Under the pieces are notes generated by a model. That model did no database searches and was not told where the DNA came from. It saw only the letters and a program-made list of their open reading frames with translations. A stretch of DNA of 64,000 bases from the NCBI GenBank assembly GCA_050273025.1, contig CP158635.1, positions 4,774,001 through 4,838,000 on the forward strand, given 5' to 3'. This document shows positions 17,067 to 55,462 of this stretch, in pieces (the first letter of the stretch is position 1; the number at the start of each line of letters is the position of its first letter). The translations under genes and the position numbers were made by a program. Source of the stretch: Cenococcum geophilum. Taxonomy: Eukaryota.

Positions 17067-17079
17067 TACCTAATAAATA

Positions 17080-31000: not shown

Positions 31001-31345
31001 TAAAATTATATAAAAGATTTTACCGGTTATATTTAAATTAGACCTACTAGCCAAAATTAAAATCTACCCTATATAGTATATTATAATGCTAGAGCTAGTA
31101 TATAGAAATATTAAGCTACTAGTTTATAAAGTAGATATATATAGAGGATAAGAAAAAGATAAATAGCAAGTTTTAAAGATTGTTAATTATAAGGATATTA
31201 ATAATAAAATATAGTATAAGGTTAAGTGGATAGGCTATAATAAGACTACCTAGGAACTACTAGAGAATTTAAAAAATATTATAGGAAAGGTATAGGAGTA
31301 TCGGAAGAGATTAGGTTAGGTAGTATTAATAAAGAAGAATTGCTA
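25030..31345 (+). pseudogene. Gypsy A gag (extended) and pol (PR-RT-RH-IN-chromodomain)
   Basis: LCI(D)[16 protein letters not shown] near 28739, YL(DD)IIIY near 29039, LNY(D)I(HD)KELL near 29585, (HP)QTDG(QT)ERLN near 30580, YKVKWIGY...TT(W)E(P) near 31215. Confidence 0.9.
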
Positions 31346-31960
31346 AAGAATAAGTCACCTAAGGGGGACCTAAGAAGAGTAGTTGCTAAACTACTTAGAT
31401 TTATTTCCTTCTTAGCTAAAAGAGAATCTATTCTCTTATTACTAAGTTCCTATAAACCCTATTTTATAAGTTTCTACTCCTTAAAATAGACCTTCTTATA
31501 AACCTTCTTAAGACGGTTTAACCGAGTAGACGCCGTAAGATAAGACTTAAGGGCCCGTTGCTAAGTATTAGTAGCCTCCTATTTAGCGTCCTAGGAACGG
31601 CGTAACTCCGCTAAAGTAATAGATAGTTTATTATTTAGCTGTGTAGTAATAGATTAAATATAAAACCTTAAGCTAAATTAATTAGGGAACTAGACGACTA
31701 TTTAGAGTAATAGGTTATATATACTTAGTATTAGAAATAGAGCAAACGTTATAGGACGGATAAATATTTACTTTAGTGCACTTTAAATAAGAGGACGGTT
31801 ATTACAAAGATGGGTTCGCTAACGTAATATAAACTAACCCCTCTTTTAAATAGCGAGAACATAGAGATAGTATAATCTTACTAAAAGACAATATCGCAGT
31901 AATAGTGCGAATGCGACGAGCAGTTAAAGATAAAGAAATTACTTTAGGTATAATAAGTAA
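31340..31960 (-). pseudogene. Antisense accessory gene of Gypsy A: Zn2Cys6-like motif plus probable coiled coil
   Basis: De-RIPed reading gives C-x2-C-x6-C-x13-C-x2-C-x8-C near 31750-31865. A second copy lies near 75-190. Confidence 0.6.
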
Positions 31961-32487
31961 TTATATTAACTAAATTAATTAGACGGATATTATACTCTAG
32001 TAAATAACTTAAAGATATTTAGAATCTTTAAGGATAAAGATAAAAAGGAGGGAGATAGTGTTATGGACGCTTTAAGTATAATATTACAACTACTTAGAGA
32101 AGAGTTAGAAGAAGCTAGTTAGTTAATTTAAGCACGGTTTAGGATAGAGCCGATAGAGCTATATAACGAGGAATGGTAGCTAAGGTTATATAACGTGATC
32201 TATATAATCTATATAATCTATATAATCCGTAATAGAGTAGGTAGAGTACACGTATATTATATATAAGGAGGATTTTATAAGAGTATAGTTGTATATTTAA
32301 GGACCCTTAGTTCCTACTAAGATAGTTCCTTTTTTATAGTAATTCTTAGAATATAATTAGAGTTAATCTATTAGGCAACCACTCCACTAATTATTATTAT
32401 ATTATTGACTTTAACTTGCTTTACCTATATACCTAGCCTATTAATAAGCCCACTATAGTTCTTACTATAAGGTTCTATTACACAAAC

Positions 32488-33040
32488 TAGGAGCTCTTCT
32501 CTACTTCTTTAGCAGAACTAGTTTAAGAGCTAGAACTAGAAGTAAAAATCTTAGTACTAGAAGAACTAGTAGAAGAAACCCCCTATATAGAGATAGGAGA
32601 AAAATGTCCCTTAGCCTCTTTAGAGGATTTGTATAGACTTAGGGATAGAAGTATAAGTACGCTAGCAGATAATCTAGTTGTAGATCTTACTAGCTATATT
32701 AAGCTAGTAATAAAGAAAGCTATTCCTAGATTTAGAACCTATAAATTCTTTAAACTATAGTGGAATACAGAGCTTCTATAGAAAAGGAAAAAAATGGTAA
32801 AACTAGGAAGACTTTAAGAAGAATAACCTACTAAAAGTTTAAGACTAGAAGCCTATAAGGAAGCTAAAACTAATTGCTAGAATAGCTTCCTAGAAAAGGT
32901 ATAGGAAAAAGAGATCTTTACTGCCCTAAAATATATAAAGGAGAAAATATTATAAATAATTCCTAGTCTATAGTATAGTAAGGATAGGACTATAAGACTA
33001 GTAAAAAGCTTTAACAAATAGTATAAAGCTTTTATTACTA
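32488..33040 (+). pseudogene. LINE A ORF2 part 2 (linker between EN and RT)
   Basis: Resumes after the CAAAC TSD. K(P)(W)WNTEL near 32752. Ends ...KAFIT at the Plavaka insertion. Confidence 0.8.
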
Positions 33041-33094
33041 TATCGGGAAAATATTCGTAGGATGAGATTCAAGTAGACTTTATTTTTCGCGTTT

Positions 33095-33610
33095 CGCGTA
33101 ATTAACATGCAATTTAACTAACTTGACACGCAATTAACCAACTTAACACGCAATTAACTAACTTAATATACAACTTAACTAACTTAATACGCAATTAACC
33201 AACTTAATATATAACTTAACTAACTTAATACGTAATTAACCAACTTAATATATTTAAAAGTTAAATAATACGCAGTTAACCTACTTAACAACTTTAAAAG
33301 CTAACTGTATATTCCTTAATATGCAATTAACCAACTTAAAATTTAAATAATACGTAGTTAACTAACTTAACAACTTTAAAAGCTAACTATACATTCCTTA
33401 ATATGTAATTAAGGTAATATAATATATTATTTTAAAGTTATATACCAATTATATAAATAAATTTTTACTATTTTCTTAGCCTATAGTATGCTAGCTTATA
33501 ATATATATTAGGATTAAAATAATTTTATATAATCTTATATAATCTTATACAATTTTATATAATCTTATATAATCTTATATAGTCCTATATAGTCTTATAT
33601 AGGTTCTATA
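33095..33610. repeat. Left subterminal tandem repeats of the Plavaka element
   Basis: About 20-bp unit CGCAATTAACCAACTTAACA over 33095-33410, and 10-bp TTATATAATC array near 33524-33600. Confidence 0.85.
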
Positions 33611-33779
33611 CTAGCTTAGCTACTTTTACTATTTATCCTGGCTTCTATATAATAACGCAATACAGGTTCCTTCTTTAAGAAAGTTGTCCGAGTATAGAGT
33701 ATTGTATTAGTCCTAATTAATATAATTATTAATATAGTACAAATCTAGATAAGAAGTAGCGGCTGAAACAATATGCGCG

Positions 33780-36700
33780 CTTTATAAAATAGATAGCATT
33801 AAATAAAAGCGACCACCTCTAAGTACTTGCCTAGTATTTACGCTCGAGCGCGGCCACCTTTTCACCTTAACTATGCCGTGTATTAGATGCGGCAGTCTAT
33901 AATTTAATGGCTAAAGCAGCTCTACTATAGCTCTAGTATACTATACGTATATACTATACTTATCTAACCTTTTAATATCTAGAATAGTAACAATTAGCTA
34001 AAGCTAGCCTATAAGTCTTTTACCTAACGGTGTACGGCCCTTTTTAATACGGTCGTTATTATCTATATACTCTTAGACCCATACGTAATTACGCCTCTAC
34101 TAGTTAGAATATTACTAATCTAGTACGCAACGTACTACCTTACTAATTTAGGCCTTAAGGTTAGTTGTATTTTTTTTGTCTTTTTTCTAATAGTGGATAG
34201 ATAGATATATTTTAATAAGTAGGCGCTTAACCTATAAAGGATCCTTCTCTTTTTAGTCCATATTGGAGTTCTAGGCACGTTCGCCTTATAGTTTTTACCT
34301 ATACTCTTGGATAAATACCGCAATGCCGTCTAGAAACCCTAGGATTTTATAATAGTTTGCTATATAAGATATATAAAGCCACGTCTTTAACCTAAGACGC
34401 CTTTGGACAAGATCTATTGCCCTATTTATATCTTCCAAAGGCCACCAAAGCTTTACAACTGCTAAATGCTATATTAGTTAAGTAACCTATACCTTTAGAC
34501 GCTAGGAAGACTATAATACAAAATCACTATTTATAAAAGCTATTTTATCTTCTATTGCTAGTACTACTACCCGTCTTAAATTGTAAGAGCAGATTTAAGA
34601 TAGCAAATCCCGTTTATTTATTAAGTTATAAAACGCCTTAATAATATAATGGTGTCTAGCTTCGCCATTTACGCTAATATAGTACCTATCTGCACATCTG
34701 TACAGGCGGATATTTTCCTTAAAATATATAAGGGCATGGAATTTTGGTATATTAAAATGGCCCGTATTAGAATTCTTTACCTTTAGACGGAAACTTTAAA
34801 ACACGCCTTTAAGCATATTAATTCGATATAGGGTGTGGTGTATATATTGTAGTGTCTCCTTATTATAGGTGTAATACTAAGCTATAATAACGAAGTTATA
34901 TACGGCTCTTATAAAATGCATAGTATATAATTTCCTAGATAACAGTAGTGGGGCTAGCATAGCGACAAGTTGACAAACTATAGCTTTTTGTTTATTACCT
35001 ATCTATTAAGTAACTTTACTAAATAATAGATTATTAAACCGTTTTAGCCCTATAAAAGCCGGGACTTATTTAAAACGCTAATTAAGCTAAGCCTCCGCAG
35101 ATATATTTATTATGGTTGTCTTTATCCCTCTTCTCTTTTTTTTTAGCTGGACGACATTACCTACTAGTTTCCGTACCTATTTAATAAGTTATATAACGAT
35201 ACCCTTTAGAAGCTAATATAGAATATCTACCATTATGCCCTTATAGATGTTAAATAGGCAATAATGCTACGCGAAATATTCTACTAGGTATACTTAGTCG
35301 TCTAAAGATAGAAGAATGTTCTCTAGTTACTAGCGTTTAATCTGTCTTCTTATCTCCTTATAAGTGCATAGCGGGTATTATTTCTTAGTTAAGTTTTTAC
35401 GCTTTAAAGGGGGAACCTAGCACATAGTGCAGTGCTGTCGGCTTTTAACACCTATAAGCAGCACTTATTCTTTATAGTCTGCCATTATTCTACATATAAT
35501 TAGATAATATCGTCGCATAAAATTATCCGCATATTAAAGGTCTATGCCACTTTCTATAAGATGCTTAATTACTATTATATTTTAGTTTATAGAATATAGC
35601 GTTAAAATACTAAAGTAGAACTTACGTTTAAGTATTGTTCTTATCGCCTTATAATATGCTTTACTTTTTATATTATTATCCTTTTCTTTAATAACTAGTA
35701 TAAAACTAATAAGAATATTTATAGGGGATATCTATCGGCGTTAAACTTGTCGGTTAAGATTACTAATAGTAAGATATACTGGCCAGGCCGATTTATCGCT
35801 ATAGTGCATTATTAGCTAGGTCTTATCGACTGCTATAAGTATAGAAACTACTATAGCACCGCTAGGAACCTTGCCTTATATCTCCTACTACTAATCACCG
35901 CTGTATAGCTTATTATAGACTTAGTAGTTATCGGCATTATAGAGTCTCTTTAGTGCATATACTAGTGTATTTTTAAAGGGTCAATGGCTAATTAGAAAGG
36001 CAATTACATTTATAACATCCTAGTAAAGAATATAGTATTTCCTCTGCTTAGAGCCTTTAATGTTTAATTCCACCTTACACTCTAATTAGAGCCATTGTTT
36101 ATCTTATATACTAAATAAAATAGCGGTAATTAGTTCCTCCCATTAATTTACAGATTAGAAGCTAAGTAGGCTATAAAGTAGGCTAAGGCGGGTATCTTTA
36201 AGTAGTACGTTAACGTCTCCCTTTATACAGCGAATACGGTGCAGCTATATTAAAAAGGCGTAATTAAACTTTAAATAAAAAGGATTATATAGTATACTTT
36301 AGCTATTATCGTGTTATTATATAGTAATATCTAAAATTGTCTAGTTAACTTACTATATATTATTATCGGTCTCGCATAAAATTAGTTTACCTATCTTTAT
36401 ATTCTTAGTTGCTTTAAATATCTTTACTCTAAGTAATAATAATAACAATAGGACGCTTTTCTAATATAGTATACCGCACGGAGGCACTAGGTAGGCATTC
36501 TGCTTATATTTTACCGCCACTAGAGCGTACTTATTAGTATCCGTATTTATACCGTCTAGTTATAATTACGCGTTATCTAACTAGTTAGAGTAGTAGAATT
36601 AATTGTAAATTATAAGTAGTCGGGCCGTAATAAACGTGCGAGTATTATATCTCTCTTTGCGTATTTTTTTATAGACGTGTTAGTGGCTAGGCAGCTGCCT
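33780..36700 (-). pseudogene. Plavaka transposase (RIP pseudogene)
   Basis: Minus-strand de-RIPed motifs: RVYNELHSGDWWWEMQ...GATVVSILIAVDKTQL...GDKSAWPVYLTIGNL (35755-35930), MADYEEQVLLTGVKSRQHCTMCQVPP (35410-35490), VDILHQLLKGI (near 35200), HFNIPKFHALTHF..NIRLYG (34700-34760). Confidence 0.9.
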
Positions 36701-36759
36701 TTTATAGCACCGTAGGTATTAGTAAAGGCCACCATAACTCTTAGGGGTATAAAAATACT

Positions 36760-37856
36760 ATAGATAGCTCTACTACATTATCGCTAATTATATATTAAAT
36801 AATATAGTATTATTTCTAGGCGTAAAGAGTGTGTATTATAGTACTAACGGTTAATTACTAGTATTTAATCTAAGTAGCTTAGCTTTATAGCTACTAAGAG
36901 TATACCTCTTATTTTCTCGCTAGAACTAGTTATACTAAAGCGTAAGTATAACTAGCTTAATACTGAGTTTAAGGACTTAAGAGTCTAAGGCAACCGAACT
37001 AGACGCTAAAGCGTAAGTATAACTAGTTTAATACTAAGCTTAATACCAAGTTTAAGGACTTAAAAGAGTTTAAAGCAGCCAAACTATAAACTAAAGACTT
37101 AATAGTACCTAAAAAACCTTTATCCGTCTAAATAACAATATATAGTATTCTTAGGCGATGGATATAGGACCATAGCTATAGCGAAGATATTATTTACTAC
37201 TAATGTTATAGAGCCTGACGATATTAGCTATCCGGACCTATAATTCTATTATTTCTATATAAGCCGTAGTAAGAAAAAAGGGAGGATTAAGGGTAGTACT
37301 AGTTAAGTTAAGATAACTAAATAAGTTAGTACTTAGAACTATAATATTTAGTCTTAGGTATATAGAGTTCTAACTAATATCTAACTTAAGCTGCCGCCCG
37401 GAAGTCTTATATTTGTTATTAGGGTAACGCTAGAGGGTTAGGCTAGATAATAGGTATTAGCAATAATATAAATAATTTAAAGCCCGCGAAGTAACTAAAT
37501 AGAAAGCCTATATCTTATAGGCTAACTACTTATCTTTAACAGCTTTTAAAAGTTTATTTCTAGAATTTCTTTTAATACCTCTGGTTTCCTATTAAACAGA
37601 TATATTAGCACGAGCCTATATACTACTAGGGTGCGGAGAGCTAAAATATAGTTAGAGCTCTTTAAATAATTTAGTAGAAAAGAATGGGTTATTTAGGTTA
37701 GTCTGTAAATCGGCTAGCTTAACCTTAACATTCTACCCCAGCTTGCGAAGATTAGGGCCATCTCCACCCGGTATACCACCGTCGATCTATATATTAGCAT
37801 CTCCCTTATTTATAGCGGCTAAAGAAGCTTTAGGTGTCTGGTCTTTAGAAGGCATT
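36760..37856 (-). pseudogene. Unknown ORF upstream of and co-oriented with the transposase
   Basis: Reads MPSKDQTPKA...IDGGIPGGDGPNLRKLG from ATG near 37856. Ser-rich low-complexity 3' part. Confidence 0.45.
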
Positions 37857-38409
37857 ATAATACGGCTTTTAAGAGAGCCTACTCCGCGCTAGGGCACTAG
37901 ACGCTATATTATAGGTAGAGCTTATAGTAGTTATATAAGGCGGGATATATTTCTAGGCAGTATATATTTAGAGAAATTAAGGCTAAGGTAAGCTTAACGT
38001 AGCCGTGTTTTTAAAGAGAAATTAAGGCTGAGCTAAGCTTAATATAGTTATATTTTTAAAGACAAAGAGGCTATAGTGTCGGTTTAGGCGGCTATAGAAG
38101 TTTAAAAGATTAAGCGGACAATAGTAGAAAATAGAAGAAAAAGGCGTATAAATGAGAGTACGGTATTATAGGGCTAGAGTAACAATAGCTGTGTTATAGA
38201 TAGCTTGATATGTAATTTGGACTATAGGACCTATATATAAATAAGTTTAGCGAATATCTTTAATATAAGGCGTAGTAGCTATAAATAGGATCTAGGATAC
38301 TAGTTTTGGGTTGCCTATATAGTAGACATAATAGCTTACCTAAAAAAAAGTTGCTTTATTAGTGATATAGCTTAAAAATAGGTTATACTTTAGGTAAAAG
38401 GGTATCCCA

Positions 38410-38735
38410 AAGCCTTATCTTGCGCTTGTGGGATAAAATACTATATTATATTTTACTTTGTTTTATACAATCTTAGACTTTTTATAATATCTTAGATTAT
38501 CCCCCTACCTCTCTCTACTATGCACTTTACCTTATCTTACGCTTATGGGATAAAATACTATATTATATTTCACTTTTTTTTATACAATCTTAGACCTTTT
38601 ATAATGTCTTAGATTATCCTCCTACCTCTTTCTACTATGTATTTTGCCTTACCTTACACTTATAGAATAAAATGCTATATTATATTTCACTTTTTTATAT
38701 AATCTTAGACATTTTTTAATGTCTTAGATTATCCT
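38410..38735. repeat. About 119-bp tandem repeat, ~2.7 copies, in the divergent intergenic region
   Basis: CCTTATCTTRCGCTTRTGGGATAAAATACTATATTAT...TCTTAGATTATCC recurs near 38412, 38530 and 38647. Confidence 0.85.
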
Positions 38736-39479
38736 AAACTTATTTCTCTACCTCTTTAGAGCTGCTTTACTAACTAGTTATAACACAAAGAATAGAATCA
38801 TCAGCTCTCTTATTATTATTCACTTAGTTAATAGCGTAAATCTTGCATCTTATCTCGCTACGTATTTTTTATTCCATTTCTTACTCCAAGTCTTATATTT
38901 CGTTCTACTGCCTATATTAAAGCTTATATCTTATCCTACTTCTTATATTAAGACTCGCATTCCGTTCTATTTCTTATATCACTCTTAAATTACTTTTATT
39001 AGCATCCGCTATTATCTTAAGTTAACACTATTAGTATACCTTCTTATTATAACTGTTAGGATTATCTTGTTATATTATTACTAATTATCTAATACATTAT
39101 CCGCTCTACTATCTTTATAAATCACTCTATACTATTCTATATTAAGCTTTTACCCGCTTATAAATATATAAGGTCCCTAATTATAATAGCGGCGCTATAT
39201 CTAGAATCTAGTTGGTACTTAACTACTGTAACTAATAAGAACTTATTATAAATAAGTGGTCTAAAGCTGTAGTAAGGACTTATAATTAATAAAAAAATAT
39301 ATAGCGAAATCCTCTAATACTGTACTAGCGAAATCAATAAAGCGTCTAGTGGTAGGTTGCTAACGTTCGGACCTATATAAAATAGAGTTAAGCGTATAGT
39401 CTTTAACCTTCTTAATACTAAGTATGGGCACGTGTTTAAGAGATCCGATCTACTATTAGAGTTTAAAGCTTTTACTATT

Positions 39480-42400
39480 GCCGCCAAAAAATCTATATAG
39501 CGATATGTAATGACCAATAGACGTAGAGGCGTGGAGGTTATAATAACTAATACTGTTTAAAAGCGTAGCGCCTTGTCTTCTAGAAAGTAGTCTGTTGACT
39601 TATCTAGATTAAGGGCAACCTCTAAGGCTACCTAGGTGCTTAGTAATCTGTCTATTAAAGCCCTATAATAGCTAAATACTATACCTATACTATTCTATAA
39701 AATAAGCTTTGCTGTATATAGTTACCTAGACAAAATGCCATTTACTAGGGCCCCTATTCTATATGGATTTGTATTAAAAACTAAGCATAAGCATCTATTA
39801 TCCAATTCTCTAGAGAAAATTAATGTATATTACTATGGATATAACAAGCTATAGGCCGCGATAAGTAAAAACTTCTTAGTGGATAAATATAGGGATGGCT
39901 GGACTATAGTAGATCTGACTACTAGTATACTAATTCTTAACTATATAAACCTAGTATTTATAGTGCTTTCTATAAAGAAGGCCGGACTTAATATAATTAT
40001 AATTAGAGTTAAAGATTCTAATCGGATTACAAAGCGTAAGAGACTTTATAATTTATAAGATTATATAATATTATATAGAGTTGTCTAACGTATATTTATA
40101 GGTATAAGATTTAATAAGGGTGATTTTAAGTCTAACTCTAACCCTAATATTATATAACTAGTGCCGACTAGAAGAAGAATAGATATACCTGCCCTAGGTT
40201 AAAGTAGTTATAAGTAGTTAACCCTAGAGTCCACGCTACCTATACCTAAGCAGTTAAATCTAAACCCTATATTAACCCTAAAGTCTATACCACCTATACC
40301 TACTAATACATTATTAGCTGTACGGCCGGCTATAATTAAAACTACTTATAGCTAGACCTGTAGTAGTAAAGACTAGCCCCTACTAGATAAATTAGAGCTC
40401 TTAAAAGGCGTAGATCTAGATAAAGTGCAAATATTTAAAATAATGCTATAGGATAAAATAAAAGGATAGTGTAATAAATGGCCAAAGTCTAATCGCGAAA
40501 TATTTATTGATATATTATTTAAGGATATAAATAATGACCCTAACCTAATTTATATTAGGGAAATTAATCTTAACCGCATATAGGAGCGCCGCCACTTTAA
40601 CGCCTTAATTAACCCTATTTTAACTAATAAGGAACTAGAAGATAAGCATAAGGATAAAATTAAGGAGGTTAATTAGGAAGTTAATTACCTAAAGGATATG
40701 CAAGAAGTATATATTAACCTAATATTATGGGTAAAGGCGCTATAGTTCCTCTTATTTCTGTTAACTGTTTATAACACTCTTTAAGACGTAACCTTCTATT
40801 TATATGGCATAAAAAAGGGTAAAGCTATATAGATATATTAGCTGCTTAGTATTACCCATACTCTTCTTAATTGTGTAACCCTAAGTGGGACCTTTCTTAC
40901 GGATATAATGGGTTTAGGTAAGACACTTTAAATGCTTTTAATCTAGTATACCGGCGTGTTAATAACTAAGATTAACCTTAACTAGCTTAATTAGAAAAAT
41001 CAAAAAGGTAGAGATAAAAGTCTCTACTTTGCCCCTAATACGGATAAACACCCGCAGCCGCCTAACGCCTAATACCTAAGTTAAATAGATGGCATGCTAC
41101 AGTGCTATTATGTTAAGGGAAGTATTGCTAGAAAATTTCTTAACTGGCTAGTAGGACCAACTATATATATTACTAGACAGAATCTACTACCCTAAGTGGT
41201 TAAAGACGTTAAATTATGGTTTAAGACCTTAGAACTAAATAATTTTATTCCTAGAGGTAAACTATAAGTCCGTGTGCGCTATACGGCTTTTATTAGGTCT
41301 AGTATAAAGAACTATAATTTTACGGATAAAGATAGGGATATTCTTAAACCTATAAAATATAAAGGAGAAGGCGAAGTGGTCTAGTAGAAAATGGACCTAA
41401 GATTGGCTTTATATCTTATAATTACGACCTTATAAACTTAGGTAATAACCTAGACCGCTTAGGAACAGCATAAAACCATTTTTAATCTCTATAGAGACGG
41501 TGGTCCTTATTGTATTATTAGTGGGATTTTTATTAACGAGTTCTATACAGATAGGTTAGAGATAGGTTATCTAATAAAAATCGCTAAATAAGTATATAAT
41601 AATTAAGTAGTATTTCCTTGCTTCTAATACCTAGGCCGGTCTTATAAGGACGGTAATGGTAAAATAACCTACTATACCTCTTGACCTTTAGTAGTATTTA
41701 CTTCCGGTATACTAACTAGCGAAGGTTTTATAAGTCTAATTCCCGCCTTAGAAATTTTTAGGGCCCCTAATTAGACAGATTCCCTAAATATAAAATTAAT
41801 TAATAATTGTAATGTTAAAGCGTTAATTAAATATAAAAAGCTAGGAGTAGTTAATCGCTCTTCTCTTCCGAATAAGGTTATTATAGGCTTTAAAGAATGC
41901 TCCTCTTTAATTGTAAAGGTCTTAATTATGCGTAGGATAGGGGAAGACCGATGGTTTAATGGGAGGGTGATTAATAAGCTACCACTAGTCGTTTACTAAG
42001 ACTGCTATATAATAAACGATTTAATATTCAAACCGTATATTAAGAAGCTCTAGCGTGGAGCATCCTTAAAAGCTTTTAAATAGCTAAATAAAGCTTTTAG
42101 ATACTAAAAAGCTAAAGGAAGAAAAGGAGAAGAACCCATCTTTAATATAGATTAATTTCTGGAGGGAGCCGGTCGCTTATTAAAAATTTTTGCCATCTTT
42201 TTAGGCCTGGCTAAGGTAGGAGATAAGTGGCAGGATGTGTGGTAGAAGGATGAGACAAAAGTTGGAATAAAGCCGAGGTGGATAGTTAATAAGTTCTATA
42301 GCAAAAAATGGGATAAACCTTTAGACGAGAATCCACTTTAGAAGAATTAGAGCATAATTACTAACTTTAGGAAACTAAATAGAATTATAAAATATATTAA

Positions 42401-42983
42401 TAAAGTACTTAAAAGGAATCCTAATAAGAGATTACTATTTAGTAGTTATAAACCAGCGGTATATACGCTATTACGCCTTATAAGTTAGCTATTAGACTAG
42501 TAGTAAACTATTACTAATAATATAATATAGTATTTCTATAAAAGGCTTAGCCAGTCTAAATATTTAACTATTTGCTAAATAGAGTCTAGGATATCCCTAA
42601 AAGACTAGGAGGATATCTATAAAGCGTTTTATATTCTAATAGGCGGTCTTTACTAGAATAACATAGTCTAGTTTCTTATTATTAACTAAAGAGTTAGAGG
42701 AGAGGGTTTAAATTTAGTCTCTATATATAGAGTCCATCTGCTTAAACTAGTAATAATAGTAGATATAAAGGTGTAAGTGTTCGGCCAAGCTGCTAAATCT
42801 AGATAGCCAGCGCTAGTAGTTACTATATTAATAATATATAGTACGGATAAGTAGAACCTAATTAATATAGTTATATTAGCAAGGCGTATAATAACTAAAA
42901 GGATAATGATTAATAAGTCTTATAAAGTGTTTAAAGCCCAACCTACTTAGTAGGCTGATAATGATGTAATGGAAATAGCGTAG
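39480..42983 (+). pseudogene. SNF2-family (SF2) helicase/ATPase cargo gene, RIP pseudogene
   Basis: Motif I GTFL(A)D(M)MGLGKTL(Q) at 40887-40931, motif II IFI(D)EF(H) near 41526, motif III VFTSG(TP) near 41694 (all one frame). Motif V V(G)GEGLNL near 42693, motif VI (Q)VFG(R)AA near 42775. Probable intron near 42480-42530. Start uncertain. Confidence 0.85.
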
Positions 42984-43299
42984 CTGGTGTAGTTGGAGTA
43001 GCGACCCCCTATAATAAGAGTATGTCTTAGTATAATGTATATATATATAGATAATATATAACTATTTAATATTTTGTAATATATTATCTTAGTATTAACT
43101 ACCTTATAACTAACTAAACCTTAAAAAGTTTAAATTTTATCCGGATTAATATTACTTTAGCTACTAACTACTTTAATACCTGTTAAGTAATCTAGCCTAT
43201 AACCCTACTAACTCTCATTCCTAATATATATTAATAATTCCTATTAAGGTGTATCCTCTCTACTAATAGACTATATATATATGCCATCTTTATTATTCT

Positions 43300-45400
43300 A
43301 AAAGCCTAATTAGTATATAAGAGGATTATCCTATAACTAAAGCTCCCTTTATATCTTAAATTATTATAAGAAGTAAGACGGCATTAGAATAAACAAACTA
43401 ATGTTTATAACTACCGCTTTCGTCTACTAATTGCATAGTTGCAGCGTATATACGTAGTTATCTGCTATAAGGGGGAACTATCAGTAGTAGTTTTTAAGAT
43501 CTCACTATCCCGTATAAAACTTTCACTACTGCTTATAACGTCTTAACGACTACTAGCTCCTACCTATACGCTATGCGACGTCTATATAAAATCCCTAACG
43601 GCAAAGAAAAGTATACCCTGATTATTTTATTTAATCTGCCTCCTGCCTTTTTCTATTAGTGTAAGATATCGAATTAACCTATAATATAATGCTGACTGGA
43701 ATAATTGGCAAACCTAGCTCTACTAGACAAATGTGCTTAATTATAAGGACTAAAACCCTGTTACTATTAAGCTTATTATGCTATAAAATAAAAGGGCTAT
43801 TATTAATATTGGTATATTTTAAAGGCACTTTATTAGCCGGCACTAATAGATATAAGTTAATGGACTACCTACTACTTTATATTTAACGGTTTTAAGAACA
43901 ACAGGGCAAAATATGCTGTTATTCGTTATGCTTTTACTAACTACAATATTTAATTTATTATAGGCCAGAAATTTGACCTTAAAGATAAGTGAAAGGCAGA
44001 CTTTTAGGATATATTAGATATATTATGGATAAAACCTTTATATAACCTACCCGCATTAGAATACCTTAATAGCAGTACTATACCGTTAGATTTTACTATT
44101 AGGTATTAGTAACCGAGCAACCTTAAATCTTCCCCTTGTTGCCCGGCCCTAAGCCTTATTACGTTGCTAAGACTTATTACATTATTAAGTTTTATTATAT
44201 TGCCGCCGAGCCTTATCACGTTACTAAGCCTTATTATATTATTAAGTCTTATTATATTGCTAAGCCTTATTACGTCGCCAAGCCTTATTATATCGTTAAG
44301 TCTTATTACATTACTAAGTTTTATTATATTGCCGTTAAGCCTCATTATATTATTAAGCCCTATTGTATTGCCGCCGAGCCTCCTAGCTAGATTAAGTAAT
44401 TGGACGTCGCGCATTTAACTCCTAGGCGTGGCGGGTTTGATTCCTACTTATCGCGTATTAAAAATATTAAAAATATTAAAAAAGAAGGTCGTTTCCTATT
44501 AAATTAGGCGTTAGTAAGGCTCTAAATTAAGCTTATATTTTTATACGTGTCCCGCAACGCCTAAAGTTATATATTTAACGAAATCTTAGCACTATATACT
44601 AAGCATATCGGCTCTTCCACGTTAAGTTTTAATTATATTGGGCTAGCTCTAAATTATAGCAAGAGGCAGAACGTACTATACTACTACACTATAAGGACTT
44701 TGGAATATAATCTTATAAATTTAACTAAATTATAACCCCTTTCTAAACCTTACGATTAAACCAGATCCTTAGGGAGAGATCCCTATATTAAATCTTAGGG
44801 AACGTTTAGTTGCGACTTTAGATTAAATTTAAAGGCTGTAGAATATATCCGAGCTAAAGCTTAAATCTAATTCTAACGCGATTGTTTAGTTAATCTAGTA
44901 ACTTTCTAATCTAAAAGCTCCTCTAAATCGGCAAGCGCGTTAAATTCATAAGCTATACCGTATATAGAATCTAAATTTATAAATATAGGGTATCTCTGTT
45001 ACTGTAGTGGCTACTATAGTAACGGGGGCGCTATATTTTAGTGAGTAGTTAATTTACTATATCTCTACCACTGCAGTGGCGAGGTACCTTAAGTTTAACA
45101 TTACGCTAAGCATTATAACTTTCCTGTAGTAACTGAGCAACCCTAAACTAAAGTAATTGTAGAACTTACTATGCTACTGCGCTATAAAGGCCCTTAGTTA
45201 TAGTCTTATAAATTTAATTAAAATATAAACACCTTCCTAAATCTAATAATTGAATATTTCTACGTGTAATACTATACCAAGGATTATAATATAGATTGCT
45301 TAGATATGGCTTTACTACAATATAACGGCTCTATGCCAATTAATTGATCTATAAGAGATTTGGGTAGTAAAATTACTGCTAAGAGTTACTGCCCGGATCC
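43300..45400 (+). pseudogene. Unidentified cargo gene with an internal repeat
   Basis: One frame has few stops, mostly RIP-type, across 43861-44400 (WTTY.F.F.GFKNNRAKYAVIRYAF...). No family recognised. Confidence 0.35.
44151..44380 (+). repeat. 18/21-bp frame-preserving minisatellite, about 12 units
   Basis: Unit AAGCCTTATTACGTTGCT with variants; probable ancestral unit GAGCCTCATCACGTCGCC. Confidence 0.9.
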
Positions 45401-45459
45401 TGGCCGATAAATACCCATAACTATAATCTTAGTAAATGGCAAAAAGTATATAGTAGTAC

Positions 45460-45655
45460 TGAGACAATAGCAGGATAATATAAGATAATAATAAGACAAT
45501 ATAATATAATGGTAGGATAATGATAGGATAATATAACATAATGGTAGGATAATGACAGGATAATATAACATAATGGTAGGATAATGGTAGGATAATATTA
45601 GGACAATATAATATAATAGTAGGACAATAGTAGGACAATATAAGATAATATGAAA
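45460..45655. repeat. Low-complexity GGATAAT/ATAAT repeat
   Basis: Repeated GGATAATGRYAGGATAATATAACATAATGGTA-like units. Confidence 0.8.
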
Positions 45656-46952
45656 AAATAAAATATAAGATATAAAAAGAGGGAGCCCTAACGCTTCCTT
45701 TTCTTCCTACTCCTATGGCCCTGGCGCCTAATATAGTGTAATATCGTCTATCTATATAAGCGATAGTATTAAGACAGTTAGAAGTACTAGGAAATTTTAT
45801 AAAGTATATATTACTTTAAGTAATATACCTAAATAACTAGTCTAGCGTATGGTTTGTATAACATATAACAATAACAGGGGGATCTCCCATTGTTATATTG
45901 CTAAGTAACGCCTTTAAAGCTACGTTTTTCTAGTGCCTAGAGGTCTTTAAATTATTATAAGACGCTTTATAAGAACTCGTTTCAGTACAGTAACTTAAGA
46001 TTTATTAAGCCCTATAGTAGTTATATCTAACCAGTCTTTAAGAATATAAATATTCTTAAATAAGGAAGTATTTTTAATAGCTATAATTAAACTAAGATCC
46101 GTATAAGGCTTATTTATAACATATTATAATGCTTTAATATTTTATTAAACTTAAATAAAGTGTTCTAATAACGGGAATCTATTAGTGGTTAGATATCTTC
46201 TTATTTAGAAAATATTACACACTTACGGCTCTCTTATTAGCTTTTATAATGCCAATATAGTATAGTAACTAACTTTATAAAATCTAGTTTATTCCTTAAC
46301 TATTGTCTATAATACGGATAAGTTAATCTTAATATCTTTAGGTCTTAAAGAATAAGTTAACCTCTAAGGGATTCTGTTTTAATACGGCTAATGGTCTCGC
46401 CGCCACTATTATAAGTATATATTTTGTTTAAAAATTGTTAGTCTTGGGAGTTAAAATAACTAAAGACCTGGCGACTAGTCTTTTTAACTAATCCTAATAA
46501 ATTATCTTCCCTACTCTCCTGAGTGAGAACGCTATATAGATTACTAGCCCTTAAGGTGAAAATATTACTAAGCTGGTATAGACCTTGCAGATATTAGGGG
46601 ATAACTGCTTTAGAATTATGGCATGCTTACCTATTTATATATACTAACTCTATTACTATATCTAGATTCCGGCAAACTAAAAAGGGTCTACTTTAATTTA
46701 ACCTACTACCTCTCTTAACGGTTTAATCGTATCTTCTCTTAAAAGATTATATTAAGAGCTTAGATACTCCTTTATTAAGCTATACAGACCTAAGATCTTA
46801 TTAACTTATAGTGGAATATCTCTGTTTTTACTGATAATATTCTGGCCCTTATTAGGGATATTAAGTATTTTAGTAGAAGTCGGGACCTTTAATTGTGCTA
46901 ACTAGGCTCTACTAGTTATAGGCTAACTAGGCGTCTTAAAGTATTAGTAAAT

Positions 46953-47087
46953 ATAGTTACTAGTATATATTAAGCTGCCTAGAAAGGATTTATATATATA
47001 GAACTATAGCACTATAGCCTAGAGGCTGTATGCGTATTATTGTACGTAGTATAATATAATAAATATATAAAAAATATATAAAAAAAA
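46953..47087 (+). mobile_element. About 135-bp 3'-terminal fragment of LINE A inserted in the Plavaka element
   Basis: Matches 59080-59207, has an A-rich tail, and an imperfect 14-bp TSD AAGTATTAGTAAAT / AAGTATTAATGAAT. Confidence 0.88.
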
Positions 47088-49771
47088 AAGTATTAATGAA
47101 TTTGGGTACTAAATTAAGCTTATAAACGGAGACGTAAAAGGGATAGAAGGTTATAAGTCTAAGTAGTATAGCGGGTAAAGAAGCGTTCGCTAATACGCTT
47201 ATTTATTTCTTATAAGATATTTAACTAATTGTTTTATATAATAACTAAATAATATACCTATCTATACAATTCTGTACATCGGTCTTAGCGCGTAATTAAG
47301 ACGTCTTTCCTGCCATACCTCCCCCAACGCTTCTAAAATTATAGCACTAATAATAAACCTAAGCTATAATACTAAAGACACTCTTAAGTGAGATCTAGGG
47401 CTTATAAACGAATAATATAATATAATCTACTATAATGTTGAAATTAAAATGTCAACGCGTGGGCTCCTTAGATAGCTACTATGCTCCCTTATAAGCAAGG
47501 CATAAATACGGTAAATATTAAACAAAATCTCTAACGAATTCTTATCTGTATTTCTAGGTTTACCTAAGAACCTATATACTAAATATGTTAAATAGCTTAC
47601 CTAGCGCTATAGCTATAACGCGACGCGTTAAATAAATAAAACGGCTCCTACTAGGTAAATTATAATAGGTAACCCAGTACTCCTATACTTCGCCATTGCG
47701 TATTATCTACTAGCTAGCATACTAAAGGCAATAAGGTAGGAGGGAATACTAAGGTTATATAGAATAATAATAATACTAATCTAGCGGGCAGCTAACGAAG
47801 AGCTAATAATTATCCTAACCCGAAAGCTAGTAACTAGTAAGAATGACGCTCTAAATATATACGTTGATAATCTAAGCTTTAATATATTTGTAGACATACT
47901 AGGCTAGGATATTAACTTTAACCTTAAGAGCGAAACGCTTTACTATTATATTGGCGATAAGATAGCTAGAGGACGAATTTAGCTTATAAACGAAGAGAAA
48001 TGGCGTAGTGTAGTTAAGGATATATTTCTATAAGAAATGGATAGGTTTTTATTTATAATAGAATAAAGAAGAATAAGTAGGTTACTACTTAAAGTTAAGC
48101 CAGCGTTACTAACTTGTATTTATAGTTTACGCTATTAGCTAAGAATAATATAATTACTTACCCTCTATTTCCGTACCCTTGCCTTTACTAGATAACTTAT
48201 ACTCTATATATATAAGAATAGGTAGAACTAGTAAACGGGTTAATACTAAGGCGATACTTAACCTATAGCTGTCCTAAAAAACCTCTCCTAGTTAAAAAAG
48301 AGCCCTTACTCTACGCCTTAACCCGCAATAGAAAAGGCGAAGGTAACTATAACCGCAGTATAGATTATGCGCCTTAAAGCCACTACTTTATCTAGAATGC
48401 TTGCTGGTTTAATGAATTACTATATATAAAGGTAGACGGCTTAATAGAGCCCCTTAGTATACTATTAGGCGAGGGAGTCTTAGAATAATATAACCTAAAA
48501 TATTCTTATAACTTATCCGGCATTCTTAAAACGCCTAAGGGGATTGGACAATAAAGCCTAAGGTTTATACCTATTCTTTTTAGTGAACTTATTAGGGTAA
48601 TATATATTAATACTGTCCCTAGCTCGCTCTTAGTATCTAACACCCAATCCTTATATTTATGCTTGCGCTTTCCTTACCATTTTGCTAAATTTAATTGCTA
48701 TTGTAATATATATATAGGGGATAGGTTAGGCTTACTATAGGCTAGCGGGGTTAATGACGCGGAAGAATGACGTTAGATATTTATGGTAGAAATACTAGGT
48801 GTTGTATAAGGGTGTGGAATATAGCGATATGACTATATAGAAGTGTGATTACTGTTCTGTATGCCGCCTATACCTACCCTAGTATTATCTATACTAGCGA
48901 GCTGCATAAATAAAATAGATAAGCTTTACTTTAAGTGTGAGACGGGTGTTAAACCTAGTATAGGTAGACTGGAATAAGGTATAGGATCTAAAAGCTAGCG
49001 CCCTAGGTGGGTAAAGTAGTTTAATAAGGTACCTCCCTGTTAAATTCAGACACGAGCCTTACTAGCCTACTGCTTTTGTTGCCGGGATTAACGTTTAACC
49101 TTTTGTATACGTATACTATATCTACTAAGGGATATACTAATAGAATAAAATAGTTTCGCGTATAATAGCAAATAGTATTAGACAATCTTTAACTATATAA
49201 TAATGTTTTCTTAACTACTAACTTAACGCGAGTTAATAGGTTATGGTCGCGGCTTAATTGCAACTAGTTAGAACTAGCAGCTAATTATAATAAATGCACC
49301 CCTATTTAAGTTATTTGCAAGCACTATAGTAATAATACTCCTACTAATACTGCTATTAGTCTAATATATACCATACCAGTATACATTCTTTTAAGTTATT
49401 AATCTATATACGCCCTAGATATTATAGAAATAGCTATAAGGTAACCTATTCTAGCTATAAGCTATACCTTTTACTAACTAGGCAAATATAGAAGTGTTAC
49501 TATAGTAGGTAAACGTAAAAACGCGTTATTAAATACTTAAACTAGTAGTAAGAACCCTACTTTAAGTTAACATAGGATAAGGAAACGAGGATAACTAGTA
49601 TAATTAACCTTATGTCTCTACCTAGCCTACTGCTAAGAGTTGCCTATATTCTAGCTAATAGAAGGAAGAACGCGCTAATAGAGAACAAGTACGTAGAACC
49701 TAGCTAGGACGAGTATATAGAACCTAGCCAGAATAAGTACGTGGAACCCAGCTAGAATAAGTAATATTATA

Positions 49772-50077
49772 ACTCTGGTCTAGTTATATCTGGGTATAGA
49801 GAGGAGTAGGCATATAATAGACCCTATTAACGTTAAATATAATATATTAAGCTAGCTAACAATATATAAAATGTATATAGCCGCCTCCGGCTTAAAAGGG
49901 TAATATCTAATAATAAGAATAGCGACTCTGGTCTAGTTATATTTGGGTATAAAGAGGAGTAGGTATATAATAGACCCTATTAATATTATATATAATATAT
50001 TAAGCTGGCTAATAATGTATAGAATGTATATGGCCGCCTCTGGCTAAAAAGGGTAATCTCTAATAATAAGGATAGTG
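49772..50077 (+). repeat. 153-bp tandem duplication, preceded by a 24-bp x3 repeat near 49683-49760
   Basis: ACTCTGGTCTAGTTATAT... begins at 49772 and 49925. Both unit lengths are multiples of 3. Confidence 0.85.
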
Positions 50078-51804
50078 ACTATGAGTTTATACCTACTTCT
50101 TCTATAAAATAATAGCAACTAAATATTAATAAATCTACTAAATCTATTAATAATCTGGTAGTAGAACTAGCTTAGTTAAAGACGCGAAGTCCTAATCTTT
50201 TAGTTAAGGTAGGTTATACCTTTATATATAACCGGAGTCTAACTACAATACTTAATAGTCTCCTCTACTATTTAGTATTTAGTAAGCCCTAGTAAATAGA
50301 ACACTCTCTTTACTATCTAACCGCCTACCGCTATAAAAAGCAGCATCTTTATAATATACCTCCGGCTCTTAACAATTGCGTATTAGTTTAAAATACTCTC
50401 CTATACGCCTAATCCGTACCTTACCGCGTAAATAATTACGTGCTAGTTTGAAATACTCTCTTACGCGCCTAATCTAAACCTTATTACGTAAATAACTAAC
50501 ATTTAGCTTTATATTCTTCCTAGTAAGCCATATTCACCTAAACCCTAATATAGCTTCGTCTATAAAACAAGTAACCTCCCTCTAATATAGAGTACACTAA
50601 TCTAGTATTTAATCTGAAGGGGACCTAGATAGCACTAGGGAAAGTGAGGACGAGTTAGACTATGATAATTTTGACCTAACTGCCGCAATACGGGCAAGAG
50701 AAGAGTACCTCTAGATATTATAATGGCGATATATAAAAGAAAACCCACCTAAGAGACATAAGCCTATATTTGCGCTTTATAGGTCTATTTTACTAGTAAG
50801 GCTAGTAACTAACTCTAGGACTTATAACGGGTATCTTATTAACCCGTAGTTCGACCGCTTTCTAGGCCTTATTAAGGATATAATAAAAAAGGTATAGTTA
50901 GAAGCTATTTTAAAGCAGCTAAAAGTAGTATAAAAAAAAGCTAATAGTATTCCTAACCTGGTGTCCGCTTATAAGGTATCTATATACTAGAAATATTATA
51001 TTAAATTGTTTACTAATAATCTTAATATTATATATAGCTATTTAACGTAATAGGGAACTTTAGGAACTATACGATTATAAAGGCTCGTATAGTTATAAGG
51101 GAGGTATATAGGCTAGGGTTTAACAACACGCCTAAACTAATCATAGAACTACTAACTAATTATAATTTTATTGCGCTAGATTATATAAAGGTATTTTGCC
51201 TGTGCTATTTAGTAAAATACTAATAAGAGTTAATAGCTAAGTAATAACCGCTTCTGTTTTAACGCGATAGTTGCTAGTATAGCTAGTATATTTTATAGTA
51301 GAGGAAGAAACGGCCTTGCCTAATTACCCTGCTCTTATAATATATTTAAAAAGCTTACTAATAATACTATTATTTTTGTTTTAATAGCAATATATTATAT
51401 AATTAGGGAGTATAGAACTGGGTCTAAGGGAACAGATAACTTTTATAGCACTATTGTTAGCGGTTAGTATATATCCGGTATTTTACTACCTATTATTATT
51501 CTCTAACCCGTTATAGAAGCCTACGCTAACCTCTTAGGTAGCTAGAACCAGATATCTAGAAAACGGCAATCTAGAATCTGGCTGCGGCTTTAGCCTATAG
51601 TTATTAAATATACTATAGGCCTAATGCCAGATTAATTAACTATAGAAATTATTAAGGACCTGTATAAAGATAACCTTAACGACCTTATAGTGGATCTAAG
51701 TAATGATGTAAGAGAGAGGTTCCTTATAAGCCTTAGCGACAACAAAACTAACGCGATTATTAACTTAGGCTATTTATTAGTGAGCCGGGCTATACTATCT
51801 AATC

Positions 51805-54865: not shown

Positions 54866-55462
54866 CGGTCTGCCACAGAGCAGACGACCTCCACTACAAC
54901 CAGTCTGCCGCAGGGCAGACGACCTCCTCTACAACCCGTCTGCCGCAGGGCAGACGACCTCCACTACAACCCGTCTGCCGCAGGGCAGACGACCTCCACT
55001 ACAACCAGTCTGCCGCAGGGCAGACGACCTCCACTACAACCAGTCTGCCGCAGGGCAGACGACCTCCTCTACAACCAGTCTGCCGCAGGGCAGACGACCT
55101 CCTCTACAACCCGTCTGCCGCAGGGCAGACGACCTCCACTACAACCCGTCTGCTGCAGGGCAGACGACCTCCACTACAACCCGTCTGCTGCATGGCAGAC
55201 GACCTCCACTACAACCCGTCTGCTGCAGGGCAGACGACCTCCTCTACAACCCGTCTGCTGCAGGGCAGACGACCTCCTCTACAACCCGTCTGCTGCAGGG
55301 CAGACGACCTCCTCTACAACCCGTCTGCTGCAGGGCAGACGACCTCCTCTACAACCCGTCTGCCGCAGGGCAGACGACCTCCTCTACAACCAGTCTGCTG
55401 CAGGGCAGACGACCTCCTCTATAACCAGTCTGCTGCAGAGCAGACGACCTCTACTGCAACCG
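54866..55462 (+). repeat. 35-bp minisatellite, about 17 copies, each with a stem-loop
   Basis: Unit GTCTGCC-GCAG-GGCAGAC-GACCTCCWCTACAACCM. CAGRGCAGAC recurs every 35 bp from 54876 to 55436. Confidence 0.95.

What the first reader, a model, noticed from the sequence alone, without database searches (positions are those of the whole stretch)
39480..42983. SNF2-family ATPase carried as transposon cargo
Seen: SF2/SNF2 motifs I, II, III, V and VI in order, transcribed divergently from the transposase and RIP-mutated like the rest of the element, which implies it was multicopy. Known: some fungal KDZ and Plavaka transposons are linked to chromatin or DNA-modifying genes such as TET/JBP. Inferred: a transposon-encoded remodeler that could open target chromatin or counter silencing.
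Basis: partly seen in the sequence, partly recalled or inferred. Interest (0 to 1): 0.8.

Follow-up and report, generated by a model that had tools for sequence, protein, structure and literature searches.

The report
Dead SNF2-like gene beside Plavaka transposase
This is the mutation-wrecked remains of a helicase-type (SNF2-like) gene that was copied many times in a fungal genome next to a Plavaka jumping-gene enzyme, so it was probably a passenger of that transposon, though this is not proven.

Summary
One + strand frame (about 39.5-43.0 kb) carries SNF2-type motifs I, Ia, II (DExH), III, IV, V and VI in order. It lies head-to-head with a Plavaka transposase relic (- strand, 33.6-36.1 kb or further; Pfam E 9.7e-35). 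The whole window bears a strong RIP signature.

Sister copies show the frame was once open. Of 112 residues opposite the window's stops, 102 are Q or W. The gene was multicopy: 36 short diverged fragments exist in public proteins, and tens of contig variants cover each listed variable site in four sequencing runs.

SNF2 membership is weak statistically. Pfam gives no hit. Only the C-lobe profile reaches Snf2 structures, at E 0.008-0.012.

Cargo status is plausible but unproven. No termini were found. An un-RIPed near-progenitor of the transposase exists in metagenomes, but no un-RIPed counterpart of the SNF2-like gene was found.

A ZNFX1-type helicase relic lies downstream. No paper found in four searches of the held library describes an SNF2 gene in Plavaka elements.

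Verdict: a probable new accessory-gene variant of a giant Plavaka transposon, now dead. Its function is inferred only.

The parts
39510..43000 (+). Relic of an SNF2-like ATPase gene in one reading frame without frameshift. The start is uncertain (in-frame Met codons at 39510, 39735, 40443). The end is near 42983-43060.
   Evidence: Translation. Motif coordinates, and 75 stops in 1333 codons (46 TAG, 29 TAA, 1 TGA by type) against 159 and 203 in the other + frames. Sister fragments tile residues 22-867 of window:40380-42983. Opposite 36 of the 51 stops in that stretch, fragments have Q or W in 102 of 112 cases.
40902..41720 (+). N-lobe motifs I, Ia, II (DExH, now INEFY) and III.
   Evidence: P0007 keeps ADEFY and P0001 keeps FLADIIGLGK. 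There is no profile-level support: A4 against the PDB gives 0 hits at E<=10.
42426..42803 (+). C-lobe motifs IV, V and VI (GEGLNL ... Q.FG[QR]A.[KR]SRQ).
   Evidence: Profile A2 against the PDB: all 9 hits at E<=1 are Snf2-family chains, best E 0.012. Profile A5: Fun30 at E 0.0084. hhalign places A2 on RapA 504-607, P 0.027.
33632..36100 (-). Plavaka transposase relic. The N-terminal part may run on to about 36.9 kb.
   Evidence: PF18759 at E 9.7e-35 over about 35195-36100. 33632-35518 aligns without gaps to all 629 aa of the un-RIPed P0037. Of 199 mismatches, 194 are C>T/G>A-type, and all 42 stops lie opposite Q, W or R.
38413..38734 (.). Tandem repeat of 117 bp x 2.8 in the spacer between the two divergent genes.
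46341..46583 (-). ZNFX1-domain relic of an SF1 (Upf1/ZNFX1-like) helicase gene, convergent with the SNF2-like gene.
   Evidence: PF25396 at E 1.1e-10, 41.9 bits against a cut-off of 27. By eye, 'PPVIVICYTNHTLD' follows downstream in the same frame near 45.75 kb. No PDB hit.
33670..49000 (.). Stretch covered throughout by many diverged contig variants in four runs. It is the minimum extent of the repeated block that holds the transposase, the SNF2-like gene and the ZNFX1 relic.
   Evidence: all 30 bins are covered in all 4 runs. Summed depth is about 12-19 thousand in X1 across this stretch, with a bump at 46343-47676, against 0.4-1.4 million at 29001-33002. The tool warns that summed depth is not a copy number.

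Best explanation
The region is a pseudogene. It is the RIP-killed copy of an intron-free gene of about 1100-1200 codons for an SNF2-like (SF2, DExH) ATPase.

Shown:
- The gene was an intact open frame when its repeat family multiplied.
- It then accumulated C>T/G>A nonsense and missense changes.
- Many diverged copies exist.

Inferred:
- The gene was an accessory (passenger) gene of a large Plavaka-type cut-and-paste transposon, at least 15 kb long. It was transcribed divergently from the transposase across a spacer of about 2.6 kb, and it multiplied with that element.

Most likely role (inference only, low confidence): a DNA-translocating motor that helped the element in chromatin. It may have exposed the element's ends or target DNA to the transposase, or kept the element from being silenced. 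This would parallel the TET/JBP and other chromatin-directed genes carried by related elements.
For: Open ancestral frame. All motifs lie in one frame with no frameshift over at least 2.6 kb. Of 51 in-frame stops in 40380-42983, 36 are covered by sister fragments. These show Q (73) or W (29) in 102 of 112 cases. The commonest substitutions are D/N, E/K, I/T, I/M, I/V, L/P, S/F and H/Y, all transition types.

Multicopy.
- phmmer against 1.84 billion representatives gave 36 hits at E<=1e-3, all 41-161 aa and 39-83% identical. Thirteen different representatives overlap query residues 22-181.
- The 10 of 36 that I looked up are singletons on metagenome contigs of 575-1104 bp.
- In four runs, 72-102 thousand contig pieces of 80-100% likeness lie on 29001-49000. 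At the 40 listed variable sites (of 4550), mostly 10-70 contigs per run carry the other letter. Differences are almost all transitions: in X1, A>G 782, T>C 886, C>T 602 and G>A 755, against 5-38 per transversion class.

Link to Plavaka.
- The two genes sit head-to-head.
- Summed contig depth over the SNF2 bins is 0.80-0.90 of that over the transposase bins in all four runs (my arithmetic). This is weak evidence, because the tool says depth cannot rank genes.
- The transposase relic is a RIP derivative of a real Plavaka element.
- Earlier unchecked notes of this scan report the same pairing in other fungal genomes.

SNF2 likeness. C-lobe profiles hit Snf2-family structures first. hhalign puts the profile on the homologous part of RapA.
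Against: - No Pfam SNF2-rel_dom or Helicase_C hit for the region. The best fragment hit is Helicase_C at E 0.058, below the cut-off.
- The N-lobe profile finds nothing in the PDB and aligns to a non-homologous part of RapA.
- In one search, two unrelated chains (alpha-parvin at 0.014, a lipoprotein at 0.1) score among the Snf2 hits.
- No terminal inverted repeats or target duplications were found, so 'inside the element' is not shown.
- The transposase has an un-RIPed near-progenitor (P0037, 68% identity; its cluster lies on contigs up to 21 kb) and 12 further relatives at 30-36%. The same protein collection holds no un-RIPed high-identity counterpart of the SNF2-like gene. It holds only P0033 (51% over 53 aa) and P0036 (39%).
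- The un-RIPed relative on metagenome loci L001/L002 is itself frameshifted. In L002 it lies next to a CDC48-like gene, with no Plavaka in the 2.4 kb held.
- No second copy in the window allows a direct test of collinearity.
Confidence: 0.55

Rival explanations
1. The SNF2-like gene belonged to another repeat unit: a different, unrecognised mobile element or a segmentally amplified block. It merely lies next to a Plavaka copy here, through nested insertion or because a composite block was amplified.
For: - No termini were found.
- Un-RIPed transposase relatives have no un-RIPed SNF2 counterpart.
- The L002 relative lies beside a CDC48-like gene, not a Plavaka.
- The whole 64-kb window is a patchwork of RIPed repeats.
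- Summed depth is not a copy number.
Against: - Contig cover is even from 33.7 to 49 kb in four runs, with a near-constant ratio between the two genes.
- No other transposase or mobile-element family was found. Pfam scans covered 36.6-51.9 kb on the + strand and 32.2-51.9 kb on the - strand.
- Unchecked notes report the same pairing in other genomes.
Confidence: 0.3
2. It is a former single-copy host SNF2 gene that was destroyed because RIP spread from neighbouring repeats.
For: RIP can leak into adjoining unique DNA (general knowledge, recalled). The whole window is RIPed.
Against: - The gene itself is multicopy: 13 distinct representatives cover one stretch, and tens of contig variants cover each listed site in four runs.
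- No intact orthologue turned up among 1.84 billion representatives. That would be odd for a conserved host remodeller.
Confidence: 0.03
3. It is not an SNF2-family gene. It could be another SF2 or P-loop ATPase, or a chance run of motif-like strings in AT-rich DNA.
For: No Pfam or PDB hit for the single sequence. The N-lobe profile is silent. The AlphaFold model is unusable, at pLDDT 42.6.
Against: - Chance is excluded by the open ancestral frame and by motif rarity.
- The V/VI block GG.GLNL ... Q..GR..R.GQ is the SNF2 signature (recalled).
- The C-lobe profile's best matches are Snf2-family chains.
Confidence: 0.1

Closest known systems
Plavaka DNA transposons of fungi (PF18759; PlavakaA/B, TET/JBP-carrying PlavakaB; Kojima 2025, PMC12730594, abstract and passages read)
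   Same: It has a Plavaka-type DDE transposase, is multicopy, lives in a fungal host, and has a chromatin- or DNA-directed extra gene next to the transposase.
   Different: - The extra gene here is an SNF2-like ATPase, with a ZNFX1-type helicase relic nearby, not a TET/JBP dioxygenase.
- The host is RIP-competent and so probably an ascomycete, whereas the described families are from Agaricomycotina.
- The described termini (TGT..ACA, or CATCA..TGATG with 2-3 bp duplications) were not identified here.
- The passages I read name no helicase or SNF2 cargo.
Giant Plavaka elements of red algae with accessory genes PAG1-3 (bioRxiv 10.1101/2025.02.11.637652, passages read)
   Same: These are very large elements (17-19 kb) of the Plavaka lineage. 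They carry several accessory genes thought to act on DNA or chromatin, and they expanded massively in copy number.
   Different: Their accessory genes are a methylase+SET protein, a ParB-like/2OG-oxygenase protein and an unknown protein, not an SNF2. The host kingdom differs, and there is no RIP.
Snf2-family ATPases (Fun30/Etl1, Sulfolobus Rad54-like, Rad26, Chd1, ATRX: the PDB hits)
   Same: The order of helicase motifs and the C-lobe V/VI block.
   Different: No subfamily can be assigned. Motif II reads DEFH. There is an N-terminal region of about 400-450 residues and an inter-lobe stretch of about 140 residues without any recognised domain. No intact member is known.
Anti-silencing accessory proteins of DNA transposons (VANC of Arabidopsis VANDAL elements; as cited in the Bostrychia preprint passages, otherwise recalled)
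   Same: The idea that a DNA transposon carries a gene that alters its own chromatin state.
   Different: There is no sequence relation, and no evidence here of any activity.

Membership tests
SNF2 family ATPases (Pfam SNF2-rel_dom PF00176 + Helicase_C PF00271) | Significant match to the SNF2 N-terminal (lobe 1) family model | tested here: not met
   0 Pfam families at E<=1 for all three + frames of 39000-43501 read with X at stops. N-lobe profile A4 against the PDB gives 0 hits at E<=10. RIP damage may explain this, but the test as run fails.
SNF2 family ATPases (Pfam SNF2-rel_dom PF00176 + Helicase_C PF00271) | Helicase_C / lobe 2 similarity | tested here: inconclusive
   Fragment P0023 hits Helicase_C at E 0.058, 14.1 bits against a cut-off of 23.5. 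Profile A2 against the PDB: 9 of 9 hits at E<=1 are Snf2-family, best 0.012. Profile A5: Fun30 at 0.0084, with two unrelated chains in between. hhalign to RapA 504-607 gives P 0.027.
SNF2 family ATPases (Pfam SNF2-rel_dom PF00176 + Helicase_C PF00271) | Ordered motifs I, Ia, II (DExH), III, IV, V, VI in one polypeptide | tested here: met
   Read by eye in one frame, with coordinates. Two motifs were tested against shuffles. The motif definitions are recalled.
SNF2 family ATPases (Pfam SNF2-rel_dom PF00176 + Helicase_C PF00271) | DNA-dependent ATPase / translocase activity | not testable with these tools
   The gene is dead (51 stops in 868 codons). No intact copy is in hand.
Plavaka transposons | Plavaka-type transposase (PF18759) | tested here: met
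   E 9.7e-35, 120.8 bits against a cut-off of 26.3. 68% identical to P0037, which its source names 'Plavaka transposase'. The mismatches are RIP-type.
Plavaka transposons | Defined termini (TGT..ACA or CATCA..TGATG) with 2-3 bp target duplications enclosing the genes | tested here: inconclusive
   No convincing inverted repeat was found. A RIP-tolerant alignment of 32.7-33.5 kb against 49.7-50.9 kb scored 61.5, against a control mean of 75; 142 of 185 controls scored at least as high. A short motif array at 33.13-33.37 kb has two exact inverted matches at 49845 and 49998. That pattern was defined after seeing them, so it is only a lead.
Plavaka transposons | The SNF2-like gene moves with the transposase (same order in independent copies) | not testable with these tools
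   Contigs laid are 200-600 bp. There is no second copy in the window.
RIP-mutated repeat | RIP dinucleotide indices and a transition-only mutation spectrum among copies | tested here: met
   TpA/ApT is 1.58 and (CpA+TpG)/(ApC+GpT) is 0.47. Transitions dominate. 194 of 199 transposase mismatches are C>T/G>A-type, with a reverse control of 1. The usual thresholds (0.89 and 1.03) are recalled.

The most novel reading that the evidence does not exclude
A lineage of giant (15-17 kb or more) Plavaka transposons in RIP-competent ascomycetes carried its own nucleic-acid motor toolkit. This was an SNF2-type ATPase transcribed divergently from the transposase, plus a ZNFX1/Upf1-type helicase. These genes would have handled chromatin or RNA-based silencing while the element multiplied to hundreds of copies, before RIP destroyed them all. 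SNF2 ATPases would then be a new class of accessory gene of eukaryotic cut-and-paste transposons.
Probability: 0.35. Interest if true: 0.75.

Novelty: new variant of a known kind. Interest (0 to 1): 0.55.

Why it matters
Cut-and-paste transposons rarely carry genes beyond the transposase. The known extras in this group are TET/JBP dioxygenases, methylase/SET proteins and ParB-like proteins, and all of them point to a fight over chromatin marks.

An element-borne SNF2 motor would add ATP-driven remodelling to that list. It would also give a testable reason why some Plavaka families grow to giant size and very high copy number.

This copy is dead. The value lies in pointing to the family and to the un-RIPed relatives in metagenomes (the P0037 cluster) where a live version could be sought.

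Tried and rejected
Whole genome and earlier notes
- No whole genome is held for this window.
- Earlier-findings look-ups by place and by sequence found nothing.

Pfam and RNA scans
- One Pfam call was too large and gave no result.
- Pfam on the RIPed SNF2 frames found nothing.
- Pfam on 9 fragments gave only sub-threshold hits.
- Pfam on the ORFs of the GC-rich island and others gave nothing usable.
- Rfam on the whole window gave 0 hits.

PDB and profile searches
- The single SNF2-like sequence found nothing in the PDB.
- The N-lobe profile A4 found nothing in the PDB.
- hhalign of A4 to RapA gave a non-homologous match.
- The ZNFX1-like frame found nothing in the PDB.

Alignments, structure and atlas
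- MAFFT of all 36 fragments on the full query misplaced the C-terminal fragments (A1). I used segment alignments instead.
- AlphaFold2 on the C-lobe alignment A5 gave pLDDT 42.6, too poor for a fold search.
- The atlas run on the plain translation of L001:266-793 gave only scores of 0.82 or less to unrelated families, which is noise.

Searches for longer or related sequences
- 'Longer' homologue searches with the un-RIPed pieces P0033 and L001:266-793 found nothing.
- A viral-contig scan with P0037 found nothing.
- A genome-contig scan with the transposase alignment A6 found nothing.

Within the window
- blastn and tblastx found no second copy of the SNF2-like or Plavaka genes.
- tblastx of L002 against the window matched only 42270-42482. 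No CDC48 relic is present here.
- Stop-density scanning was too noisy to find further genes.
- The terminal repeat searches failed.

Literature
- Iyer et al. 2014 (PNAS) is not held, so whether it mentions helicase neighbours of Plavaka could not be checked.
Full report
**What is there.** The window is AT-rich (GC about 0.30), apart from an island at 53-56 kb. It carries a strong RIP signature throughout. TpA/ApT is 1.45-2.29 and (CpA+TpG)/(ApC+GpT) is 0.17-0.82. For 39480-42983 the values are 1.58 and 0.47. No ORF in the region exceeds about 80 codons.

The + strand frame that starts at 39480 nevertheless reads as one continuous protein interrupted only by stops. It carries helicase motifs in the order expected of SNF2-type ATPases (coordinates):

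- I: DIMGLGKTL, 40902-40928
- Ia: PTIYITRQNLLP, 41157-41192
- II: IFINEFY, 41526-41546
- III: FTSGILTS, 41697-41720
- IV: KRLLFSSYK, 42426-42452
- V: RVRGEGLNLVS, 42690-42722
- VI: VFGQAAKSR, 42777-42803

The motif consensus forms are recalled. Back-translated MGLGKT and GEGLNL each occur once in 64 kb, where shuffles give 0.00 and 0.01. From 39000 to 43000 this frame has 75 stops in 1333 codons, against 159 and 203 in the other two + frames. The low-stop stretch reaches back to about 39.0 kb, so the gene was probably 1100-1300 codons long. Its start is uncertain.

**It was an open gene, killed by RIP, and multicopy.** I ran phmmer with window:40380-42983 (stops as X) against 1.84 billion cluster representatives. 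It gave 36 hits at E<=1e-3. All are 41-161 aa and 39-83% identical, and together they tile residues 22-867. Thirteen different representatives overlap residues 22-181. The ten I looked up are singletons on metagenome contigs of 575-1104 bp.

I aligned all 36 fragments back to the window's frame. Of its 51 stops, 36 are covered. The residues opposite them are Q (73), W (29), R (5), L (2), and P, G and F (1 each). That makes 102 of 112 the two residues whose codons RIP turns into stops. The commonest substitutions are transition types.

I laid Logan contigs of four runs on 29001-49000 at 80% likeness or more. This placed 72-102 thousand pieces per run, and all 30 bins were covered in all runs. 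Differences are almost all transitions. At the 40 listed variable sites (of 4550), mostly 10-70 contigs per run carry the other letter. The runs come from two organism labels and one root metagenome.

**Is it SNF2?** The support is only partial.

- The RIPed sequence gives no Pfam family at E<=1 and no PDB chain at E<=10.
- A profile of the C-lobe (window plus 7 fragments, A2) finds 9 PDB sequences at E<=1. All are Snf2-family: Sulfolobus Snf2/Rad54 at 0.012, Fun30 at 0.024, then Rad26, Chd1 and ATRX.
- A wider profile (A5) puts Fun30 first at 0.0084, but two unrelated chains score among the hits.
- hhalign places A2 on RapA residues 504-607, which is RapA's own motif IV-VI region, at P 0.027.
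- Fragment P0023 touches Helicase_C at E 0.058.
- The N-lobe has motif-level support only.
- An AlphaFold model of the C-lobe was unusable.
- No subfamily can be named.

**The neighbour.** On the - strand, about 35195-36100 matches PF18759 Plavaka at E 9.7e-35. The same frame runs on to about 33.6 kb.

The last homologue search found P0037 (629 aa), which its source (JGI/IMG) names 'Plavaka transposase', at E 5.7e-280 and 68% identity. Twelve further relatives lie at 30-36%, among them a Plenodomus lindquistii protein. Basidiomycete proteins lie at 23-27%.

Window 33632-35518 aligns without gaps to all 629 residues of P0037. Of 199 mismatches, 194 can be reached by C>T/G>A from a codon of the P0037 residue, against 1 in the reverse control. 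All 42 window stops face Q, W or R. The transposase relic is therefore a RIPed descendant of an element whose un-RIPed form exists in metagenomes, on contigs up to 21 kb.

The two genes are head-to-head. They are separated by about 2.6 kb that holds a 117-bp x 2.8 tandem repeat and no recognisable domain.

**Is the SNF2-like gene cargo of the Plavaka element?**

For:
- The two genes are adjacent and divergent.
- Contig variants cover 33.7 to 49 kb evenly in four runs. Summed depth over the SNF2 bins is 0.80-0.90 of that over the transposase bins in every run, while the neighbouring 29-33 kb repeat is about a hundredfold higher. The tool warns that this depth is not a copy number and cannot rank genes.
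- No other mobile-element family turned up in the Pfam scans of 36.6-51.9 kb (+) and 32.2-51.9 kb (-).
- Unchecked notes of this scan describe the same pairing in other fungal genomes.

Against:
- No termini or target duplications were found.
- The only hint of termini is a short motif array at 33.13-33.37 kb with two exact inverted matches at 49845 and 49998 and none elsewhere. I defined that pattern after seeing them.
- The protein collection holds the un-RIPed transposase, but no un-RIPed high-identity counterpart of the SNF2-like gene.
- The only un-RIPed relatives are distant. These are P0033/L001/L002 (30-51% identity, themselves frameshifted, with L002 next to a CDC48-like gene) and P0036.
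- I could not fetch the long contigs.

**Other content of the block.** PF25396 (ZNFX1 domain) matches at E 1.1e-10 on the - strand at about 46341-46583. By eye, an SF1-helicase-like motif follows downstream. This relic is convergent with the SNF2-like gene. It coincides with a local rise in contig depth, so it may belong to another repeat. DUF6532 scores just under its cut-off at about 51222-51470 on the + strand.

**Literature.** Searches for Plavaka+SNF2 (1 paper, unrelated use), Plavaka+helicase (10 papers), Kyakuja/Zisupton/SWI2/Plavaka, and EnSpm/SNF2/'accessory gene' found no description of an SNF2 gene in Plavaka or EnSpm elements. I read these parts:

- Kojima 2025: abstract and passages
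- The Bostrychia preprint: passages
- The Agaricus paper: one passage
- The Spirogyra paper: passages
- The Cryptococcus KDZ preprint: passages
- Muszewska 2017: passages

Iyer et al. 2014 is not held, and I read no supplements. Either could hold a relevant neighbour list.

**Verdict.** The region is a real, dead, formerly multicopy SNF2-like gene. It was probably (about 0.55) an accessory gene of a giant Plavaka transposon, and its function is inferred only. If confirmed, it is a new variant of a known kind of element.

Noticed in passing
window 46341-46583 (-), and about 45.75 kb: Pfam ZNFX1 domain (PF25396, E 1.1e-10), followed by an SF1-helicase-like motif read by eye. This is a Upf1/ZNFX1-type helicase relic, convergent with the SNF2-like gene. 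It sits under a local rise in contig depth (46343-47676), so it may belong to a different repeat.
   Followed up: partly
proteins P0037, P0060, P0065 (JGI/IMG metagenome contigs of 5.5-21 kb): An un-RIPed transposase that differs from the window's relic almost only by RIP-type changes (194 of 199 mismatches). Intact-looking members of this Plavaka family therefore exist in the environment.
   Followed up: partly
window 51222-51470 (+): DUF6532 match at E 5.4e-5, 23.6 bits against a cut-off of 24. It may be a further gene relic in the same repeat block.
   Followed up: no
window 33102-33412, and 49772-50080: Tandem arrays (period 20/41/82 bp on the left; 153 bp x 2 on the right). The motif TTARYYARYTTAATA matches exactly five times on the + strand at 33154-33250 and twice on the - strand at 49845 and 49998, and nowhere else in the window. 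These could be subterminal repeats of an element of about 17 kb, but I chose the pattern after seeing them, and a RIP-tolerant end-to-end alignment was not above controls.
   Followed up: partly
window 52.9-56.0 kb, and 15296-17068: A GC-rich island (0.52-0.58) with a 35-bp x 17.5 tandem array at 54855-55465. It has a more AT-rich inverted copy, 75-80% identical, at 15.3-17.1 kb. No Pfam or Rfam identity was found.
   Followed up: partly
window 29001-33002 (also 1-811 and 24578-24983): A different repeat whose summed contig depth is about a hundredfold that of the Plavaka block in all four runs. It abuts the transposase end of the block.
   Followed up: no
L002 1641-2326 (-): In a metagenome contig, a frameshifted un-RIPed relative of the SNF2-like gene lies convergent with a CDC48-like gene (CDC48_N at E 3.2e-9, CDC48_2 at E 4.2e-4).
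   Followed up: partly
window 38413-38734: A 117-bp x 2.8 tandem repeat in the spacer between the divergent transposase and SNF2-like genes. It could be a shared promoter or a binding-site region.
   Followed up: no
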